DNA from: Dehalococcoidia bacterium
Lineage (GTDB): Bacteria > Chloroflexota > Dehalococcoidia > UBA2979
Direction of reading: 5' to 3'
Assembly: GCA_965262725.1 (NCBI GenBank)
Contig: OZ253555.1
Location: forward strand, 1,472,001-1,536,000
Length of the DNA: 64,000 bases
Positions 40,834-47,267 of the stretch are shown piece by piece; position 1 is the stretch's first letter, and each line of letters starts with the position of its first letter. A model generated the notes under the pieces. It did not search any database. It saw nothing but the letters and a program-made list of their open reading frames with translations, and was not told the DNA's origin. The position numbers were made by a program, and so were the translations under genes.

Positions 40834-41760
40834 GTGAACGTGAGTCCCCCGCCCGCCGGGCTGTCTCGACGAGTCGCGAGGCTCATGGGCTCGGCGGTCG
40901 AGTCCGGTTGTCCGGCCGCGGGTGGGTACACCCCTGCCGAGCGTTGGTCTCTGACCCTTGCGGACGGGCGGCGTGTCTTCGCCAAGACCGGCGCAGACAC
41001 ACCGCAGTCTGCGGTCGCCAGCTGGCTGCGTCGCGAACACCAGGCCTACCGAGACATCTCCGCACCCTTCATGCCGGCGCTGCTTGGATGGGACGACGAC
41101 GGTCGTCACCCCTTGCTCCTCCTGGAGGAGCTCAGTCACGGGAAATGGCCCCCTCCATGGAGTGCAGAGCAGATTGCCGCGGTCCGATCCACCGTGGAGG
41201 ACGTTGCGCGGACGCGACCACCGGTGTGGGCTGAGGACATCGAGGAACGAGAGCGAGGGCACCTCTCCGGGTGGCTCCGAGTTCGGGAGGACCCCGCCCC
41301 CTTCCTCAGCCTGGGGCTCAGCGACGAACGGTGGCTGCGCACGTGTCTCCCAGCCCTCATCGAGTCGGCCGAGTCGGCACAACTCGATGGCGGCTCGCTC
41401 GTTCACTTCGACGTGCGCAGCGACAACCTCTGCTTCGTGAACGACGATGTCCACCGACGCGTGACGCTCGTCGACTGGAACTGGTGCGGACGCGGGAGTC
41501 CGTTGCTCGACCTCATGTCATGGCTCCCGAGCCTGCATTCCGAGGGAGGACCAGCCCCGTGGGACATGGTCGAGGAATCCAGGGGTTTCGCAGCGCTGCT
41601 CAGTGGGTACTTCGCGGCACAAGCCGGGCTGCCACCGACCGGCAGCGGCACACGGGGCCGACAGTTGCAGCTGGCCTGCCTCCGCAGCGCTCTTCCGTGG
41701 GCAATTCGAGAACTTCGGTTACCGGAACCACCTATCGAGCGATCATCGGTCCCTGACTAG
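40834..41760 (+). CDS. aminoglycoside-phosphotransferase-family protein
   Basis: GGYT, VFAK, LVHFDVRSDN and LVDWNW. Confidence 0.88.
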   Translation: MNVSPPPAGLSRRVARLMGSAVESGCPAAGGYTPAERWSLTLADGRRVFAKTGADTPQSAVASWLRREHQAYRDISAPFMPALLGWDDDGRHPLLLLEELSHGKWPPPWSAEQIAAVRSTVEDVARTRPPVWAEDIEERERGHLSGWLRVREDPAPFLSLGLSDERWLRTCLPALIESAESAQLDGGSLVHFDVRSDNLCFVNDDVHRRVTLVDWNWCGRGSPLLDLMSWLPSLHSEGGPAPWDMVEESRGFAALLSGYFAAQAGLPPTGSGTRGRQLQLACLRSALPWAIRELRLPEPPIERSSVPD

Positions 41761-41839
41761 GAATGGTGCGGGTGGGAATGATGCTTACATCTGGCCCCAC
41801 TTTGATCCTCTGATCTGGCCCCACCCCCGGGGACCGGGA

Positions 41840-42622
41840 TCAGGTCGTTGGGGCACCTCCTCTCGGGGAGGTCGAGGCCCGGAGCCGGTAGGACTCGGTG
41901 CCGGTCTCGATGATATGGGCACGGTAGGTGAGGCGGTCAACGACGGCCGCGGCGAGACGAGGGTCGGTGAAGATGCGGCCCCACTCGGAGAACGGGGAGT
42001 TGGAGGCGACGGCGACCGATGCCCGTTCCTCGCGCTCGGTCAGGATCTGGAACAGCATTTCGGCACCGCGCGGGTCGAGGTGGACGTACCCGAACTCATC
42101 CAGGCAGAGCAGGTCGAGGCGGCCGTAGCGGGCGACGAGGCGTGAGAGCGCGCGATCATCCGACGCTTCGGCCAGTTCATTCACCAGGGCGGCCGTGGTC
42201 ATGTACCGCACGCGCAGCCCCAGGTGGCAGGCGGCCATGCCGAGGCCGATGAGCAGGTGTGACTTCCCGGTGCCGCTGTCACCGAGCAGGACGACGGGCT
42301 CGCCCCTTTCGACCCAGTCGCAGCGCTCCAGCGTGGCGAGCGCCGGCGCGTCGACTGTCGGCGCCGCCTCGAGGTCGAAGTCGGCGAGGTACTTGAAACG
42401 CGGGAACCGCGCCTCGACGATACGGCGCTGACGGCGCCGCTCCTCACGGTCATCGCGTTCGGCTCCCAGCACTTCGGCGAGATAGCCCAGATGGGTGATC
42501 CGGTCTCGGACCGCGGCTTCGGCGAGCGGGAGCGCCTGCTTCCTGACGGTGGGGAGACGGAGCTCGCGGCAGATCGCCTCGATTGTCAGCTCCGCGGCCT
42601 GGTCGGTGAGGGGTGCTGTCAT
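41840..42622 (-). CDS. istB: IS21 helper ATPase
   Basis: GDSGTGKSH, LLCLDEFGY, ASNSPFSEW and AVVDRL. Confidence 0.95.
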   Translation of the reverse strand: MTAPLTDQAAELTIEAICRELRLPTVRKQALPLAEAAVRDRITHLGYLAEVLGAERDDREERRRQRRIVEARFPRFKYLADFDLEAAPTVDAPALATLERCDWVERGEPVVLLGDSGTGKSHLLIGLGMAACHLGLRVRYMTTAALVNELAEASDDRALSRLVARYGRLDLLCLDEFGYVHLDPRGAEMLFQILTEREERASVAVASNSPFSEWGRIFTDPRLAAAVVDRLTYRAHIIETGTESYRLRASTSPRGGAPTT

Positions 42623-42638
42623 CGGGTGCCTCCTGTGG

Positions 42639-44273
42639 TCAGCGTGCCGTCGACACCGCAGCGGTGACGGCGGTTGTGGTGGTGTGCGACGCGTTCTCGG
42701 CAGACCGCGGAGCGCGGGAGCGCCCGCCCGGCGACGTGCCGGGCCATCGGGAATCACCCGAGAGCAGCGCATCGTAGCCATCGAGGAGCGGGGCAGGTCG
42801 GTCGTAGCGCTCCAGGTGCGGTCTCTCGACGGCGGCGTCTGGTGGCCTGCGGTCGGCGAGACGGCGCGCCTCGATGGCGACCAGTTCGGGGTTCACCGAC
42901 TGGATCCTGTTGACCGTCCCGAGCGCGGCGTGCACCGCCGTGAAGGGAAGATGGCGATGCAGGAGCAGGACCTCGATGTACGCCTGCGTGCCCGCGCGGT
43001 CGCCGAGCTTGCGGCGGGCGCGGTCCCAGAAGCGCTGATGCTCGGCTGTGACGTGTCCCTTCGCACGCGCCTGCTGGAGCGCCACCGAGCCCGGGACCGC
43101 CCCGGGCTTGCGCGCGAGCACCTCCAGATAGTGGTCGAGCAGCAGGACCTCTGCTCCGGTGCGGGCGCTGCGCTCGTGGTGGGCGACTTCACGCCCCTCG
43201 GCCCACACGGTCAGGCTGTTCCCGGACAGCCGCACGTCCAGCTTCCGGCCTGCATAGGCCGCCGGGACCGAGTAGCGGGAGCTACGCACGGCGATGCGCG
43301 CCTTGCGGTCGACCTTCGCGCGCAGCGGGATTGACGGGTCGAAGCGCTCCGCCGGAAGCGGACGCAGCGAGGCCTTCTCGTTCTCTCCCATCTCGCCGAC
43401 GGTGGCGAGGCGGCTCTCGATGTGCCGGGCGTCGTCGGTGCGGTCCGCCTCCCGCACTCGTTCGTTCAGCTCGCCGAGGGTCGCCACCTTCGGGACCGGC
43501 ACGAAGTGCCGCCGGCGGAAGCGGCCGACCTCGCCCTCCACACCGCCCTTCTCGTGCGCGCCCTCGATGCCGGGCTCACAGAAGAAGCTGTCGAAGCCGT
43601 AATGCGAGCGGAGCGCGATGAAGCGCTCGGTCTGCAGGCGCTCGCGTCCCTGCAGCACGGTGGTGACGGCCGCCGTCAGATTGTCGTAGCGGATGCGCCG
43701 CGGCACTCCGCCGAGCCGCTCGAAGGCGACCACGTGCCCCTCGAGCAGAGACTCCTGGCCCTCGCCGACGAAGCAGACGTGCGCCGCCCGCCCCGAATGC
43801 GAGAGCCGCATCACGAACATCGCCAGCCGGGTCTCGACGCCCTCCAGCCACACCGTCACCGTGCCGAAGTCGACCTCCGCCTCCTCGCCGGGAGGATGGA
43901 CCTGCGGGATCGTCACAACCGCGCGCCCGCCCTGGATCTCGCGACGCAGGCGCGCGACGCAGGCGCGGACCGTGGGCTCGGCCACCGTCGCCCCGTGTTC
44001 GTCGACGAGGCGCTCCCAGATGCGCCGGGCCGTGTGCCGCTGCTTGCGCGGCGCGCTGAGGTCGTCCACGAGCCAGCCCCGGATGACCGAGACGTACGGC
44101 CCGAGCTTCGGGGCCACGCGGGTCGCCTGCTTGCGTTCCGGGGGTATCGCCGACCCAAGAGCCTGCCGCACCGTGCGCCGGTGCACGCCATGCCGGCGTC
44201 CCAGCTCATGGATCGACAGCTCCTCCTCCCTCGCCATCCGTCGGATAGACTCGAACAGCTCCACTCTCGACAC
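42639..44273 (-). CDS. istA: IS21 transposase
   Basis: PRKQRHTARRI, GEEAEVDFG, GGVP.RIRYDN and HEKGGVE. Confidence 0.95.
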   Translation of the reverse strand: MSRVELFESIRRMAREEELSIHELGRRHGVHRRTVRQALGSAIPPERKQATRVAPKLGPYVSVIRGWLVDDLSAPRKQRHTARRIWERLVDEHGATVAEPTVRACVARLRREIQGGRAVVTIPQVHPPGEEAEVDFGTVTVWLEGVETRLAMFVMRLSHSGRAAHVCFVGEGQESLLEGHVVAFERLGGVPRRIRYDNLTAAVTTVLQGRERLQTERFIALRSHYGFDSFFCEPGIEGAHEKGGVEGEVGRFRRRHFVPVPKVATLGELNERVREADRTDDARHIESRLATVGEMGENEKASLRPLPAERFDPSIPLRAKVDRKARIAVRSSRYSVPAAYAGRKLDVRLSGNSLTVWAEGREVAHHERSARTGAEVLLLDHYLEVLARKPGAVPGSVALQQARAKGHVTAEHQRFWDRARRKLGDRAGTQAYIEVLLLHRHLPFTAVHAALGTVNRIQSVNPELVAIEARRLADRRPPDAAVERPHLERYDRPAPLLDGYDALLSGDSRWPGTSPGGRSRAPRSAENASHTTTTAVTAAVSTAR

Positions 44274-44356
44274 ACTCCTCTTCCCTCGCTCCGGGAGTCA
44301 TGCAGTCACCCGAGCGTAGGTCCTGGATGGGTCGGGGGTGGTGTCCCCATGTTCTT

Positions 44357-44362
44357 TGTCAA
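44357..44362 (-). promoter_or_regulatory. -35 box of the IS110 circle-junction promoter
   Basis: TTGACA at the right end; joining the two ends gives TTGACA-N18-TACCTT directly upstream of the bridge-RNA region. Confidence 0.7.
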
Positions 44363-44399
44363 GGGCCAGCGCCACTGATCCGGGATGGCCGGCGCAGCG

Positions 44400-45616
44400 T
44401 CAGGCAGCCACCGACCCGTGACGAGGAGCCTCCTCGGCGCGGTACGGTTCGCGCGAGCGCAGCATGGCCAGGATGACGTCGCAGCGACGACGCGCGAGGC
44501 AGATGACGGCTGCGGTGTGTTTCTTTCCCTCGGCCCGCTTGCGGTCGTAGAACGCCCGCGAGACGGGGTCGCGCAGCGAGGCGAAGGCGGAGAGGTACAT
44601 CGCGTTCTTGAGCCGGTGATTCCCGCGGCGGCTCCGCGTCTGCCCCCGGATGCTGCTGCCGGACTGGCGGGTGACCGGGGCAAGGCCGGCGTAGCTGGCC
44701 AGCCTCGATCCGTTCGCGAAGCGGGAGATGTCACCGATCTCGGCGAGCATCCGCGCTCCCGTCCTCGGCCCGATCCCCGGCAGGGAGCCGAGGATGGGGC
44801 CGAAAGGGTGGGCCTCGAAGAGCTCCCCGATCTCCGCGCCGAGCCGCTCCCGCCGCTGCTGCGTGCGATCCAGCTCGGTCGCGACCTCGGCGATCACCCG
44901 ACCCATCGCGACCGAGCCGGGTACGACCACGGTCTGGGCGCCGAGGGCCCCGGTGACGGCCTCGGTGAGCGTCTTCGCGAGGCGCGGCGAGCGCTTCCGG
45001 AGCGTCCGCGCGATGCGGCCGCGACCCGCCGTGGCCAGCGCCTGCGGTGTCGGGTAGCGGGCGAGCAGGTCCCGTGCCCCCGCATTGTGGAGCCTGGGGC
45101 CCAGTACGCGCTCCAGGGCCGGGGAGAGACCGGTGACGGCGTCGCGCAGCCGGTTCGTGAGCCGCGTGGCATCGGCGGCGAGGTCGGTGTCGTAGCCGTT
45201 GAGAACGCGCAGCTGCTCCAGGAGTTCGTCGTCGCCGGCGTCGAGCCAGTGCACCTGGTGGCGCCGGGTGCGGCCGGTGTCGGCCAGCACGAACGCATCG
45301 CGGCGGTCGGTCTTGGACTCACCCGGGTAGAGGTCGGCGGCACGGCGCATGACCAGCCCCGGCAGTATGCCACCGGCACGCCGCGGCGGGCGGCGACGGC
45401 GAGCACGAGCCGGGCCAGCGAGCCGGGCTGGTCGACGACCAGTGCCGGGGAGCCGAAGGACTCCGCGCGAGCGAGGAGCGCCTCGATGTCGGCCTCGTCG
45501 TTCGCGACGGCGACGGCGAACAGCGGCGCGCCTGCCGCGTCCAGCACATCGGCGAAGTGCTCTGTCTTGCCGATGTCGAGGCCGATCCACACGGTGGTTT
45601 CGTCGGGCGTACCCAC
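44400..45616 (-). pseudogene. IS110 recombinase with a 1-nt frameshift near 45365
   Basis: IGLDIGK...VVDQ...VAY in one frame; LPGLVMRR...KTDRRDA...SLPGIG...YAGLAP..RQSGSS...GNHRLK in the next. Confidence 0.9.
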
Positions 45617-45639
45617 TGCAACTCCTTCCGGGGTTTCCC

Positions 45640-45850
45640 CCTCATTCCAGCAGGAAGGCCGCAGGCGCGCTCGCCGTCATCCACCTTACAAATCAGCGAT
45701 TGGCTCGCATGTCCCCATCAGAGGTTCACGCGCCGAACAGTGCCGGTGGCAACACCACCCGAGCCGTCCGTTGCGGCAGGGCCATTTGAGCCATGCCGGC
45801 ACTGCTGGGCTTCCCGGGCTCAGAGGTTACTGAGCTCGTTTGAAGAAGGT
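45640..45850 (-). ncRNA. putative IS110 bridge RNA
   Basis: Four guide segments match the element's own junctions: AAATGGCCC (45779-45787), GGGTGG (45755-45760), ATGGGGACA (45710-45718) and GTAAGG (45684-45689). Confidence 0.8.
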
Positions 45851-45852
45851 AA

Positions 45853-46171
45853 GGGGCCATTTCCCGTGACTGAGGTCCTCCAGGAGGAGCAAGGGGTGAC
45901 GACCGTCGTCGTCCCATCCAAGCAGCTCCGGCATGAAGGGTGCGGAGATGTCTCGGTAGGCCTGGTGTTCGCGACGCAGCCAGCCGGCGACCGCAGACTG
46001 TGGTGTGTCTGCGCCGGTCTTGGCGAAGACACGCCGCCCGTCCGCAAGGGTGAGAGACCAACGCTCGGCAGGGGTGTACCCACCCGCGGCCGGACAACCC
46101 GACTCGACCGCCGAGCCCATGAGCCTCGCGACTCGTCGTGACAGCCCGGCGGGCGGGGAAGTCACATTCAC
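45853..46171 (-). pseudogene. 5' fragment of a near-identical paralog of the phosphotransferase at 40834, cut by IS110
   Basis: MNVTSPPAGLSRRVARLMG...LEDLSHGKWP, then IS110 sequence; inverted relative to the intact copy. Confidence 0.9.
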
Positions 46172-46502
46172 ACCGAGAATCCTACAGGTGCACCGGCGAC
46201 CGGGAATGGGAGCGGGGTGCGCACTCTTCGCGAAAGGGCGTCACGGGCCACGGAGGTTACGGGCCGGTCCACCGATCGTCCTCCACGGGATGCTTGATTG
46301 CGAGAACTGCGGGAACGCGCCGCATCCCGCCCGCAATCACGCACTGTCCGCTCTTCCGCGAGTGCTCGGTTGGCGCGGCGGGACCACGGCGAGGCGGTTG
46401 ACGCCGCATCCTTGACGCGATGGCGGCCCGTCGGCATGTTCGTTCCCGGGGTCGGCGGGCTCGGCCTTCGAGCCGACGTGAGCGGATGTCGGAGGCGCAG
46501 CG

Positions 46503-47267
46503 ATGACGTCCTACGTCGACCGCCTCGCCCGCCGCAGCCGCGCGGTTGGCAGCTTCGTCTGCGTCGGCCTCGACCCGCCCGGCGACCTGCCTGTCGAGGA
46601 GGTCGCGCGCCGCAACCGCGCGCTGATCGAGGCGACCGCGCCCTACGCCGCCTGCTTCAAGCCCAACCTCGCCTTCTACGAGCAGTTCGGCATCCCCGGC
46701 CTGCGCGCCCTCGAAGCGACTCTCGAAGCTATCCCCGGCGGCATCCCTGTCATTTGCGATGCCAAGCGCGGCGACATGAACAACAGCGCCGCCGCCTACG
46801 CCCGCGCCCTCTTCGAGGTCTGGGGCTTCGACGCCGCCACGGTGAATCCGTACCAGGGGCGCGACGCCGTCGCGCCCTTCCTCGCCTACGAGGACCGGGG
46901 CGTTTACCTCCTCTGCCGCACCTCGAATCCCGGGTCCGCCACCATCCAGAACGCCACCCTCGCAGGCGGCCTGCCGCTGTATGAACGCCTCGCGGCCGAG
47001 ATGCCCTCGTGGGGCGCGAACGTCGGCCTCGTCGTCGGCGCGACGGCGCCGACCGAGCTCGCCCGGGTGCGCGCGCTCGCTCCGGAGACCACGATCCTCG
47101 TGCCGGGCGTCGGCGCGCAGGGAGGCGACCCGGCCGAAGTGGTGGCCGCGGCGGGACGGGCGCCCGGCCTCATGGTGGTGAGCGCCTCCCGCAGCATCGC
47201 GAGCGCGCCGGACCCGGCGGCCGCGGCGCGAGACCTGCGCGACGCCCTCAACGCCCCCGGTCGGTGA
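46503..47267 (+). CDS. pyrF: orotidine-5'-phosphate decarboxylase
   Basis: CVGLDP, FKPNLAFYE, DAKRGD, RTSNPGS, VVGAT, LVPGVGAQGG and SASRSI. Confidence 0.95.
   Translation: MTSYVDRLARRSRAVGSFVCVGLDPPGDLPVEEVARRNRALIEATAPYAACFKPNLAFYEQFGIPGLRALEATLEAIPGGIPVICDAKRGDMNNSAAAYARALFEVWGFDAATVNPYQGRDAVAPFLAYEDRGVYLLCRTSNPGSATIQNATLAGGLPLYERLAAEMPSWGANVGLVVGATAPTELARVRALAPETTILVPGVGAQGGDPAEVVAAAGRAPGLMVVSASRSIASAPDPAAAARDLRDALNAPGR

What the first reader, a model, noticed from the sequence alone, without database searches (positions are those of the whole stretch)
44336..45863. IS110 bridge RNA with all four guides readable, apparently programmed against IS21 terminal repeats
Seen in sequence (minus strand): the non-coding left end has a first loop, closed by a GTGCCGG/CCGGCAC stem, containing AAATGGCCC and GGGTGG. 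A second loop contains ATGGGGACA and GTAAGG. These match the left flank (AAATGGCC-CC), the right flank (CC-ACCC), the element's right end (ATGGGGACA-CC) and its left end (CC-TTAC). The predicted target is AAATGGCC-CC-ACCC and the donor is ATGGGGACA-CC-TTAC. An unoccupied near-copy of the target, ATCTGGCCCCACCC, is the terminal repeat at the other end of the neighbouring IS21 (41813-41826), and the IS110 sits where the IS21 left end should be. Established: IS110 recombinases use a bispecific bridge RNA with target- and donor-binding loops. Inference: this is an RNA-guided element with a CC core that parasitises IS21 ends.
Basis: partly seen in the sequence, partly recalled or inferred. Interest (0 to 1): 0.85.

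Follow-up and report, generated by a model that had tools for sequence, protein, structure and literature searches.

The report
RNA-guided IS110 element targeting IS21 ends
This is a frameshifted copy of an IS110-type jumping gene whose own guide RNA spells out both its insertion site and its own ends, and it and its relatives mostly land in the end repeats of another jumping gene, IS21; the mechanism is already known, the choice of target looks new.

Summary

The element is an IS110-family bridge-RNA element with a CC core. The window copy has a one-base frameshift. Sibling L002 is intact.

Guides covary with flanks and ends across copies in six genomes. The RNA fold is backed by compensatory changes in 20 of 37 pairs.

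Of 21 readable left junctions, 16 lie in terminal repeats of IS21-family elements. Several lineages carry guide pairs matching one IS21 repeat at 14 of 14 positions.

The local anatomy needs correcting:
- The window copy's left flank is half of an APH-like host gene, not IS21.
- Its right flank is the IS21 interior.
- The outer 49 bp of that IS21 lie 77 kb away, beside the 100%-identical inverted sibling L002.
- The other half of the host gene lies on L002's far side.
- A shared 7-bp duplication, an exact 2627-bp rebuilt IS21 and an empty paralogous site in the window prove this.

So there were two insertions and an inversion.

Verdict: a new member of a known kind, with moderate interest.

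The parts
44342..45852 (-). IS110-family element proper, without the flanking CC cores; a frameshifted copy
   Evidence: The ends are defined by comparing 6 full copies and by the empty paralogous site.
45853..45854 (-). Left copy of the CC core
   Evidence: The two halves of the split host gene overlap by exactly CC on the intact paralog.
45855..45862 (-). Left target flank AAATGGCC; here it is part of the APH-like host gene
45818..45835 (-). 5' stem-loop of the left end (GCUCAG-UAACCU-CUGAGC)
   Evidence: Present in the minimum-energy fold. In relatives another element is inserted here.
45740..45802 (-). Target-binding loop, closed by GUGCCGG/CCGGCAC plus an inner UGGC/GCCA stem, with a central hairpin GCCG..CGGC
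   Evidence: The basal and inner stems keep pairing through changes on both sides.
45779..45787 (-). Left target guide AAAUGGCCC; the following U at 45778 faces the second core base
   Evidence: It covaries with the left flank in L003, L105 and the G033 copies.
45755..45760 (-). Right target guide GGGUGG, the complement of CC-ACCC
   Evidence: Variants AAGUGG, GGGGGG and AAAGGG match flanks CC-ACTT, CC-CCCC and CC-CTTT.
45753..45754 (-). UG dinucleotide in the position of IS621's handshake guide; complementary to the last two bases (CA) of the right end
   Evidence: Placed by analogy with the positions given in PMC11208158. It is invariant in the alignment, so it is untested by covariation.
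45664..45734 (-). Donor-binding loop, closed by GGCGCG/CGCGCC
   Evidence: The basal stem has 13-18 of 28 sequences changed on both sides at three pairs.
45710..45718 (-). Left donor guide AUGGGGACA, equal to the right end
   Evidence: Four guide types each occur with the matching right end; 25 of 28 readable copies match (counted by eye).
45684..45689 (-). Right donor guide GUAAGG, the complement of CC-TTAC at the left end
44400..45616 (-). Recombinase gene; GTG start at 45616, stop at 44402-44400; broken by a one-base deletion between 45365 and 45364
   Evidence: Pfam DEDD_Tnp_IS110 and Transposase_20 are split over two frames. Alignment with the intact L002 and L003 shows the missing base. 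Run contigs carry the extra base.
44357..44362 (-). TTGACA near the right end; a possible -35 of a promoter completed only in the circular form
   Evidence: TTGAC is kept near the right end in the relatives where that end was located. The spacing to TACCTT in the left end (18 nt) is read from sequence. No promoter was found in the linear form. Inference.
44342..44350 (-). Right end ATGGGGACA (left donor)
44340..44341 (-). Right copy of the CC core
44336..44339 (-). Right target flank ACCC; the continuation of IS21 repeat L2
41773..44341 (-). IS21-family element minus its outer left 58 bp; istA 42639-44273, istB 41840-42781, right-end repeats R1 41789-41802 and R2 41813-41826
   Evidence: NCBIfam IS21 transposase and IstB. 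Joined to genome 1438844-1438903 it gives an exact 2627-bp copy.
41766..41772 (+). GTGCGGG, one copy of the 7-bp IS21 target duplication (CCCGCAC on the IS21 strand). Its partner sits beside the IS21 left terminus at genome 1438837-1438843, next to L002.
45855..46240 (-). N-terminal half of the APH-like host gene that the IS110 split
   Evidence: Open frame. It is 96% identical to the intact paralog up to the CC.
41143..41156 (+). Unoccupied copy of the host-gene target AAATGGCC-CC-CTCC, inside the intact APH-like paralog (40834-41760)

Best explanation
Window 44342-45852 (minus strand) is a copy of an IS110-family insertion sequence that works like IS621.

How it works:
- Its left non-coding region encodes a bridge RNA with two internal loops.
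- The first loop carries a left and a right target guide that read AAATGGCC-CC-ACCC.
- The second loop carries donor guides that read the element's own joined ends, ATGGGGACA-CC-TTAC.
- The DEDD/serine recombinase exchanges strands at the CC core, so an inserted copy is bracketed by CC on both sides.
- The window copy has a frameshifted recombinase. It could only move with the enzyme of the intact sibling L002, whose bridge RNA is identical.

The lineage is aimed at the repeated terminal motifs (..TGGCC-CC-ACC..) of IS21-family elements. Different lineages carry guide variants that match different IS21 repeats.

In this genome one insertion went into inner repeat L2 of an IS21 left end. A second went into an APH-like host gene that has the same left half-site. 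Recombination between the two inverted, identical copies then inverted the 77 kb between them. As a result the window copy now joins the host-gene half to the IS21 interior.

What is shown and what is inferred:
- Shown: the sequence matches, the covariation, the empty site, the IS21 split and the family membership.
- Inferred: RNA expression, a circular intermediate with a junction promoter, the order of events, and that the inversion arose by homologous recombination.
For: Guides and chance:
- each guide occurs once in the non-coding region; 0 of 200,000 shuffles hold all four.

Protein:
- Pfam PF01548 and PF02371.
- NCBIfam NF033542 'IS110 family RNA-guided transposase', 218 bits against a cut-off of 140.
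- The C-terminal domain aligns to IS621 transposase 8wt6 at E 1.2e-18, with the serine of ..SGSS.. aligned.

RNA:
- RNAalifold on 28 non-coding regions (48-100% protein identity range) gave 37 pairs, 20 of them with changes on both sides.
- These include both loop-closing stems.

Guide and target covariation:
- L003: guide AAGTGGCCC, flank AAGTGGCC.
- G031: guide AACTGGCC/ACCC sits in IS21 L2 AACTGGCC-CC-ACCC.
- G033: guide ATTTGGCC/ACTT sits in IS21 L1 ATTTGGCC-CC-ACTT, occupied three times.
- L037: guide AAAGGG, flank CC-CTTT.
- The left guide equals the left flank at 8 of 8 positions in 8 of 15 junctions. Shuffled pairings reached that in 0.025% of 100,000 trials.

Donor covariation:
- 25 of 28 readable copies have the left donor guide equal to the right end, across four sequence types (counted by eye).

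Empty site:
- The N and C halves of the split gene overlap by exactly CC on the intact paralog.

IS21 split:
- Of 15 left and 15 right termini, the only unpaired ones are those beside L002 and in the window.
- Both carry the flank CCCGCAC.
- Joined, they give exactly 2627 bp with one difference from consensus.

Census:
- 16 of 21 left junctions are in IS21-type termini.
- IstA or IstB lies next to the copy in 9 loci.
- In this genome 14 of the 18 sites within one mismatch of the predicted target are IS21 L2 repeats.
Against: - No Rfam family matched at E up to 1.
- There is no direct evidence of the RNA. Contigs of two RNA-library runs from one study cover the non-coding region of a close relative, but such libraries can hold DNA.
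- No circle junction was seen in contigs, and no promoter was found in the linear form.
- Guide and flank agreement is imperfect. In 7 of 15 junctions the left flank is not a perfect match: 7 of 8 in one (L123), 6 of 8 in five, 3 of 8 in L008.
- The G032 copy L106, with guide ATTTGGCC, sits at AACTGGCC.
- 9 of 28 right flanks differ from the right guide.
- 5 of 21 junctions are not in IS21 ends.
- The 14 free IS21 L2 sites here have one mismatch and are unoccupied. The identical free host-gene site at 41143-41156 is also unoccupied. The element may therefore be nearly inactive here.
- The copies counted are relatives, so the shuffle test overstates independence.
- The inversion rests on a single assembly with a 1.5-kb inverted repeat.
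Confidence: 0.85

Rival explanations
1. The element is a bridge-RNA IS110, but the link with IS21 is incidental. On this view it recognises a short GC-rich word (TGGCC-CC-ACC). IS21 ends are merely the commonest carriers of that word in these genomes, so nothing is 'aimed' at IS21.
For: 5 of 21 junctions are outside IS21 ends, including a host gene. The conserved part of the site is short. A sister subfamily (L004-L006) targets plain C-runs.
Against: The variable guide positions track lineage-specific variants of IS21 repeats:
- AACT/ACCC with L2 in G031.
- ATTT/ACTT with L1 in G033, 14 of 14 positions each.
- AAGT/ACCT of L003 with L1-type repeats.
- AATT/ACCC in G008 equals L2 of this genome's IS21.
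In this genome 14 of the 18 near-targets are IS21 L2 repeats. In practice IS21 is the target population either way.
Confidence: 0.1
2. The L001/L002 arrangement did not arise by two insertions plus homologous inversion. It arose either in one step, by a replicative intramolecular transfer of the IS110 to an inverted target, or it is an assembly error across a 1.5-kb inverted repeat.
For: Each copy keeps one 'old' flank and one 'new' flank, and the copies are inverted. That is the textbook product of intramolecular replicative transposition (recalled, not from any call). A 2025 preprint, of which I read only the abstract, reports copy-preserving and direct-transfer pathways for an IS110 element (10.1101/2025.10.25.684509). 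The two copies differ at only 2 positions.
Against: The accepted IS621 model inserts a double-stranded circle, which gives simple insertions (PMC11208158 passages). Inverted identical repeats of 1.5 kb are ordinary substrates for homologous inversion. The genome is one 3.67-Mb contig, which suggests long reads, though I could not check them.
Confidence: 0.2
3. The 'guides' are not functional RNA guides. On this view the matches exist because the non-coding region captured or shares ancestry with pieces of an IS21 end and of its own termini.
For: No RNA has been shown. The left and right target guides are partly complementary to each other in the minimum-energy fold.
Against: Four segments sit in the order and strand pattern of IS621: left guides in the sense of the top strand, right guides as its complement. 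They lie in loops closed by covarying stems. They change together with flanks and ends in independent lineages. The partial complementarity of the two target guides follows from both reading the same core.
Confidence: 0.03

Closest known systems
IS621 of E. coli (IS110 family; bridge RNA; Durrant et al. 2024, PMC11208160; Hiraizumi et al. 2024, PMC11208158; passages read)
   Same: - A DEDD N-terminal domain and a serine-bearing C-terminal domain (8wt6 match, E 1.2e-18).
- A non-coding region upstream of the gene.
- A 5' stem-loop followed by a target loop and then a donor loop.
- A 9-nt left guide followed by one U and a central hairpin.
- A right guide that reads the core plus the right flank, followed by two bases complementary to the donor's last two bases.
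- The core dinucleotide present on both sides of the insert.
   Different: - The core is CC, not CT.
- The U after the left guide would face G as a wobble (inference).
- The recombinase is 405 aa; the 8wt6 chain is 328 aa.
- Only the C-terminal third aligns by phmmer.
- The natural targets are IS21 terminal repeats. REP sequences as the IS621 targets is recalled.
- The host is an uncultured Dehalococcoidia-like bacterium, judged from the record titles of the nearest loci.
[quoted passage not shown]
   Same: A DEDD-type element that lands site-specifically in the terminal repeats of another transposable element.
   Different: - It belongs to a different subfamily. IS1111-type elements have subterminal inverted repeats and a downstream non-coding region (PMC11187229 passages). 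Here the non-coding region is upstream.
- The victim here is an IS21-family element, at its repeated terminal motifs, not a Tn3-family inverted repeat.
ISEc21 and other IS110-type elements with a seekRNA (Siddiquee et al. 2024, PMC11187229; abstract and passages read)
   Same: An upstream non-coding region encodes an RNA with short matches to both strands of the target. Natural reprogramming between relatives is reported there as well. The G--P----SG motif is present (P0001 G311..S319-G320).
   Different: No IS21 target is mentioned in that paper; the term 'IS21' has 0 occurrences in its main text. Its supplementary tables of targets could not be read.

Membership tests
IS110 family (bridge-RNA-guided recombinase elements) | N-terminal DEDD / RuvC-like domain | tested here: met
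   PF01548 matches both frame pieces of the window copy. The intact sibling P0001 scores 218 bits on NF033542 against a cut-off of 140. D14, D103 and D106 (TDRRDA) are read; the second acidic residue is not assigned.
IS110 family (bridge-RNA-guided recombinase elements) | C-terminal Tnp domain with the conserved serine (G--P----SG) | tested here: met
   PF02371 at E 2.3e-24. The alignment to IS621 8wt6 places the query serine of RQSGSS on the chain's YESGSS.
IS110 family (bridge-RNA-guided recombinase elements) | Intact recombinase gene in this copy | tested here: not met
   There is a one-base deletion between 45365 and 45364. L002 and L003 are intact.
IS110 family (bridge-RNA-guided recombinase elements) | Long non-coding region upstream of the gene that folds into two internal loops closed by stems | tested here: met
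   Single-sequence fold z = -2.0. The consensus fold of 28 relatives has 20 of 37 pairs with compensatory changes.
IS110 family (bridge-RNA-guided recombinase elements) | Loop segments match the target flanks and the element's own ends, and covary with them | tested here: met
   There are exceptions: 7 of 15 left flanks and 9 of 28 right flanks are imperfect.
IS110 family (bridge-RNA-guided recombinase elements) | Insertion without a target duplication other than the shared core dinucleotide | tested here: met
   The halves of the split gene overlap by exactly CC on the intact paralog. The rebuilt IS21 is 2627 bp, the length of the complete copies, with one CC.
IS110 family (bridge-RNA-guided recombinase elements) | Circular intermediate with a junction promoter that drives the bridge RNA | tested here: inconclusive
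   TTGACA at the right end would lie 18 nt from TACCTT in the left end (read). There is no promoter in the linear form. No right-end-to-left-end joint was seen in contigs of 4 runs, and contigs cannot show absence.
IS110 family (bridge-RNA-guided recombinase elements) | RNA is made and binds the recombinase | not testable with these tools
   There is only a weak hint. Contigs of 2 metatranscriptome runs from one study cover 45540-45851 of a close relative.
Rfam-curated RNA family | Match to a curated covariance model | tested here: not met
   0 matches at E up to 1 in 41000-47000. I do not know whether Rfam 15 holds a bridge-RNA model.
IS1111 subgroup | Long non-coding region downstream of the gene, plus subterminal inverted repeats of 11-13 bp | tested here: not met
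   The non-coding region is upstream (236 nt before the GTG at 45616; only 50 nt between the stop codon and the right end). Subterminal repeats were not searched for.
IS21 family (the target element) | istA transposase followed by the istB helper ATPase | tested here: met
   NF033546 scores 240 bits against a cut-off of 160. NF038214 scores 248 bits against a cut-off of 200.
IS21 family (the target element) | Terminal inverted repeats with repeated inner motifs, and a short target duplication | tested here: met
   The termini read TGGGAATGATGCT.. at both ends, with two ..TGGCCCCAC.. repeats at each end. Duplications of 6-7 bp flank the complete copies. That such repeats are IstA binding sites is recalled, not tested.

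The most novel reading that the evidence does not exclude
This IS110 lineage may be a specialised hyperparasite of IS21-family elements. On this reading its two target guides co-diversify with the repeated terminal motifs of IS21: guide variants AAAT, AAGT, AACT, AATT and ATTT exist, and each of these words is also found in an IS21-type terminal repeat. IS21 would serve as safe harbour and vehicle. Discrimination would be single-base. The one occupied IS21 copy here differs from its 14 near-identical siblings at exactly one base in 2627, the base that turns a one-mismatch repeat into a perfect target. A bolder form, much less likely, is that this base was rewritten after insertion to match the guide or the sibling copy.
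Probability: 0.4. Interest if true: 0.65.

Novelty: new member of a known kind. Interest (0 to 1): 0.5.

Why it matters
Bridge-RNA recombinases are being developed as programmable genome editors. Their natural target range and natural specificity are known mainly from IS621 and a few relatives.

This locus offers three things:
- A compact natural data set in which target and donor guides can be read directly. Several naturally reprogrammed guide sets sit next to their targets.
- A CC-core variant with a naturally intact enzyme (L002) that could be tested.
- A case of one mobile element aimed by RNA at the terminal repeats of another.

That third point bears on how insertion sequences avoid harming their host and how they travel together. 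The locus also shows a concrete genome consequence: a 77-kb inversion and a split gene.

The mechanism itself is not new.

Tried and rejected
Searches and tests that gave nothing:
- Rfam scan of 41000-47000 at E up to 1: no match.
- Promoter scan of the linear element: none. The junction form could not be scanned because I did not type joined sequence.
- Pfam on the N-terminal half of the split gene: no family at E up to 0.1. NCBIfam on the intact paralog: none.

Public runs:
- 20 of 24 listed runs hold part of the stretch.
- I laid 4 of the 24 (X19, X20, X1, X2).
- No right-end-to-left-end joint was seen and no run spans the whole stretch.
- Contigs cannot show transcription starts or absence, so this says nothing about circles or expression.

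Literature:
- Five full-text searches found no paper describing IS110-type insertion into IS21 ends.
- The library lacks many subscription papers, ISfinder and TnPedia.
- Supplements were closed, so a prior description may exist.

Ideas rejected:
- The left flank GAAATGGCC is not carried along as part of the element. Three copies in G031 share one guide but have three different left flanks. The IS21 copy keeps 10 of the 11 flank-plus-core bases of its own repeat.
- L003 was not filed as an insertion in a complete IS21. Its flank has an IS21-type terminus and leader, but tblastn found no IstA or IstB within the 1.5-kb flanks held in the locus.

Left-flank matching for the C-run subfamily (L004-L006) was looked at only by eye (4-5 of 8) and not pursued.
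Full report
**Observation.** On the minus strand the element reads flank AAATGGCC, CC, TTACC... at its left end and ...ATGGGGACA, CC, ACCC at its right end. A script took the four expected words from coordinates only and found each exactly once in the 232-nt non-coding region:
- AAATGGCCC at 45787-45779
- GGGTGG at 45760-45755
- ATGGGGACA at 45718-45710
- GTAAGG at 45689-45684

None of 200,000 shuffles of that region held all four; the product of the single frequencies is about 1e-8.

**What the element is.**
- The two reading-frame pieces carry Pfam DEDD_Tnp_IS110 and Transposase_20.
- The genome (one contig, 3.67 Mb) holds three close copies: L001 (the window copy), L002 (2 differences from L001) and L003 (98%). 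It also holds three copies of an 80% subfamily, plus fragments.
- L001 lacks one base between 45365 and 45364. L002 and L003 have an open frame.
- L002 translates to 405 residues without a stop.
- That protein scores 218 bits on NCBIfam 'IS110 family RNA-guided transposase' (cut-off 140).
- Its C-terminal third aligns to the IS621 transposase structure 8wt6 at E 1.2e-18, with the conserved serine in register.

**RNA anatomy.** I compared it with the IS621 positions given in PMC11208158 (passages). After a 5' hairpin (45835-45818) the layout runs as follows:
- A loop closed by GUGCCGG/CCGGCAC and UGGC/GCCA.
- Its 5' side reads UC-AAAUGGCCC-U.
- Then a hairpin, GCCG..CGGC.
- Its 3' side reads UC-GGGUGG-UG-UU.

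This matches the IS621 order: a 9-nt left guide, a one-base linker, a stem-loop, a right guide, then two bases. Here those two bases are complementary to the last two bases of the donor's left half. The second loop, closed by GGCGCG/CGCGCC, holds AUGGGGACA and GUAAGG.

RNAalifold on 28 non-coding regions from relatives (Dehalococcoidia-like MAGs, Acidimicrobiia and Actinomycetes by record title) recovered both closing stems, the inner stem and the central hairpin of the first loop. It also found an outer stem enclosing both loops. Of 37 pairs, 20 keep pairing through changes on both sides. It also pairs CCC of the left guide with GGG of the right guide. That is expected, because both guides read the same core. 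Rfam gave no match.

**Covariation of guides with DNA.** In this genome:
- L003 has left guide AAGTGGCCC and left flank AAGTGGCC.
- The 80% subfamily has donor guide ATAGGGACA with right end ATAGGGACA, and right guide GGGGGG with right flank CC-CCCC.

Across relatives:
- Four donor-guide types (ATG, ATA, ACG and ACA before GGGACA) each occur with the matching right end. That is 25 of 28 readable copies; the exceptions are L005, L023 and L024.
- The right guide equals core plus four flank bases in 19 of 28 copies, including AAAGGG with CC-CTTT in L037.
- Both figures are hand counts from the table.

In four related genomes reached through the loci:
- G031: guides AACTGGCC/ACCC, with one copy in a site that matches at 14 of 14.
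- G033: guides ATTTGGCC/ACTT, with one copy (L113) whose left and right flanks match at 14 of 14. Two more copies (L121, L125) sit in the same repeat type with a perfect left flank; their right flanks were not read.
- G008: guides AATTGGCC/ACCC.

Among 15 junctions of the close subgroup with a readable guide, 8 have a perfect 8-of-8 left match. Shuffling flanks among the elements reached that in 0.025% of 100,000 trials. The copies are kin, so this overstates independence.

Against the rule:
- Five junctions match at 6 of 8.
- One matches at 7 of 8.
- L008 matches at 3 of 8 (it lies next to a tRNA-like sequence).
- The G032 copy L106, with guide ATTTGGCC, lies at AACTGGCC.

**What the flanks are.** Downstream of the right end lie istA and istB of an IS21-family element (NCBIfam, both above cut-off).
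- The genome has 15 left and 15 right termini of this 2627-bp IS21.
- Fourteen are paired. The only unpaired left terminus is immediately upstream of L002, and the only unpaired right terminus is in the window at 41773.
- Both unpaired termini are bordered by CCCGCAC.
- I joined the 60 bp beside L002 to the window part by slicing. This gives exactly 2627 bp with one difference from the consensus of the 15 copies.
- So one IS21 was hit by the IS110 inside its inner left repeat L2, and was later split.

The window copy's left flank is an open frame. Its continuation, in frame, is the right flank of L002, which carries the C-terminal half of a Pfam APH domain (E 1.4e-6). An intact paralog lies in the window at 40834-41760. 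The N half aligns to it up to ...AAATGGCCCC, and the C half, starting at the core, aligns from CC onward. The overlap is exactly CC. That paralog is an empty site, AAATGGCC-CC-CTCC, at 41143-41156.

L001 and L002 are inverted and 77 kb apart, and their right flanks are exchanged. The simplest history is two insertions followed by homologous inversion. A one-step replicative event or an assembly error cannot be excluded.

**Is IS21 the target?** IS21-type left ends here read TGGGAATGATGCTCTG-AATTGGCCCCACCT...-AATTGGCCCCACCC (repeats L1 and L2). The right ends have two similar repeats.

I counted every readable left junction of the close subgroup in six genomes:

| Genome | In IS21-type termini | Not in IS21-type termini |
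|---|---|---|
| G000 | L002, L003, L014, L015 | L001, L008 |
| G031 | L105, L109, L112 | L116, L119 |
| G032 | L106, L133, L142 | none |
| G033 | L104, L113, L121, L123, L125, L138 | none |
| G096 | none | L155 |

- The total is 16 of 21.
- IstA or IstB lies beside the copy in 9 of the loci examined by tblastn.
- In this genome the predicted target has no free perfect copy. Fourteen of its 18 one-mismatch sites are L2 repeats of this IS21.
- The non-coding region was found at E up to 1e-30 in 10 of 99 genomes of the family, counting G000. None of the 4 same-genus genomes has it (completeness 73-93%). The distribution is patchy.

**Mechanism.**
- By analogy with IS621, the RNA pairs its left guides with the bottom strand and its right guides with the top strand of target and donor. 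The tetrameric recombinase exchanges strands at CC.
- The U after AAAUGGCCC would face the G opposite the second core C (a wobble; inference).
- A TTGACA near the right end would sit 18 nt from TACCTT in the left end only after circularisation (inference). No promoter is seen in the linear form.
- Contigs of two metatranscriptome runs from one study cover 45540-45851 of a close relative. This is a weak hint only.
- The same call shows that DNA contigs of two runs carry the base that the window copy lacks.
- It also shows that the commonest environmental guide variant is ATTTGGCC/AAGTGG.

**Unexplained.** The occupied IS21 copy differs from the consensus at one base in 2627, position 53, T to A. 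Nine of the 14 complete copies are identical to that consensus. Position 53 is exactly the L2 base that would otherwise mismatch the left guide.

- Strict guide specificity acting on a rare variant fits the 14 free one-mismatch sites.
- Conversion of the 11-bp homologous flank during recombination with the host-gene copy is the other ordinary explanation. That copy's native flank has the A.
- I could not decide between them.

**Novelty.** Bridge and seek RNAs of IS110 and IS1111 elements are established (PMC11208160, PMC11208158, PMC11187229). So is the targeting of another transposon's terminal repeats by IS4321 and IS5075, which I saw only as a cited title.

Five full-text searches found no description of IS110-type elements aimed at IS21 ends. 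Supplements, ISfinder and TnPedia were out of reach. I file this as a new member of a known kind with a possibly undescribed target class.

Noticed in passing
genome copies L004, L005, L006, L010 (outside the window): A second IS110 subfamily (80% nucleotide identity) has guides AGTGCCCCC and GGGGGG and sits in C-runs (..CC-CC-CCCC). Its left flanks match the left guide at only 4-5 of 8 positions by eye. L004 is intact, L005 has a stop codon and L006 has a frameshift.
   Followed up: partly
L021, L022, L030, L036, L133, L138, L142, L154 (related genomes); loose end at window 45828 in run X19: Another, unidentified element is inserted inside the 5' stem-loop of the IS110 left end, after CTCAGTAG. 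It occurs in several copies in three related genomes and in contigs of an RNA-library run.
   Followed up: no
genome-wide; window 41773-44341: There are fifteen copies of one 2627-bp IS21 in 3.67 Mb. Nine of the 14 complete copies are identical to the consensus, which points to a recent burst. One copy lacks the stretch between repeats L1 and L2, and one has a 45-bp internal deletion.
   Followed up: partly
window 40834-41760 (+) and 45855-46240 (-); L002:3028-3687: There are two 96-99% identical paralogs of an APH-family (PF01636) gene of unknown substrate. One is intact beside the IS21 right end. The other is split by the IS110, and its halves lie 77 kb apart.
   Followed up: partly
L008 (genome 1651232-1651641, minus strand): A truncated IS110 left end with guide AACTGGCCC abuts a tRNA-like sequence. 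Its flank matches the guide at only 3 of 8 positions.
   Followed up: no
P0001 (L002 recombinase), residues 242-369: There is a sub-threshold match (55 bits, cut-off 100) to the NCBIfam model for the TIGR-Tas RNA-guided endonuclease.
   Followed up: no
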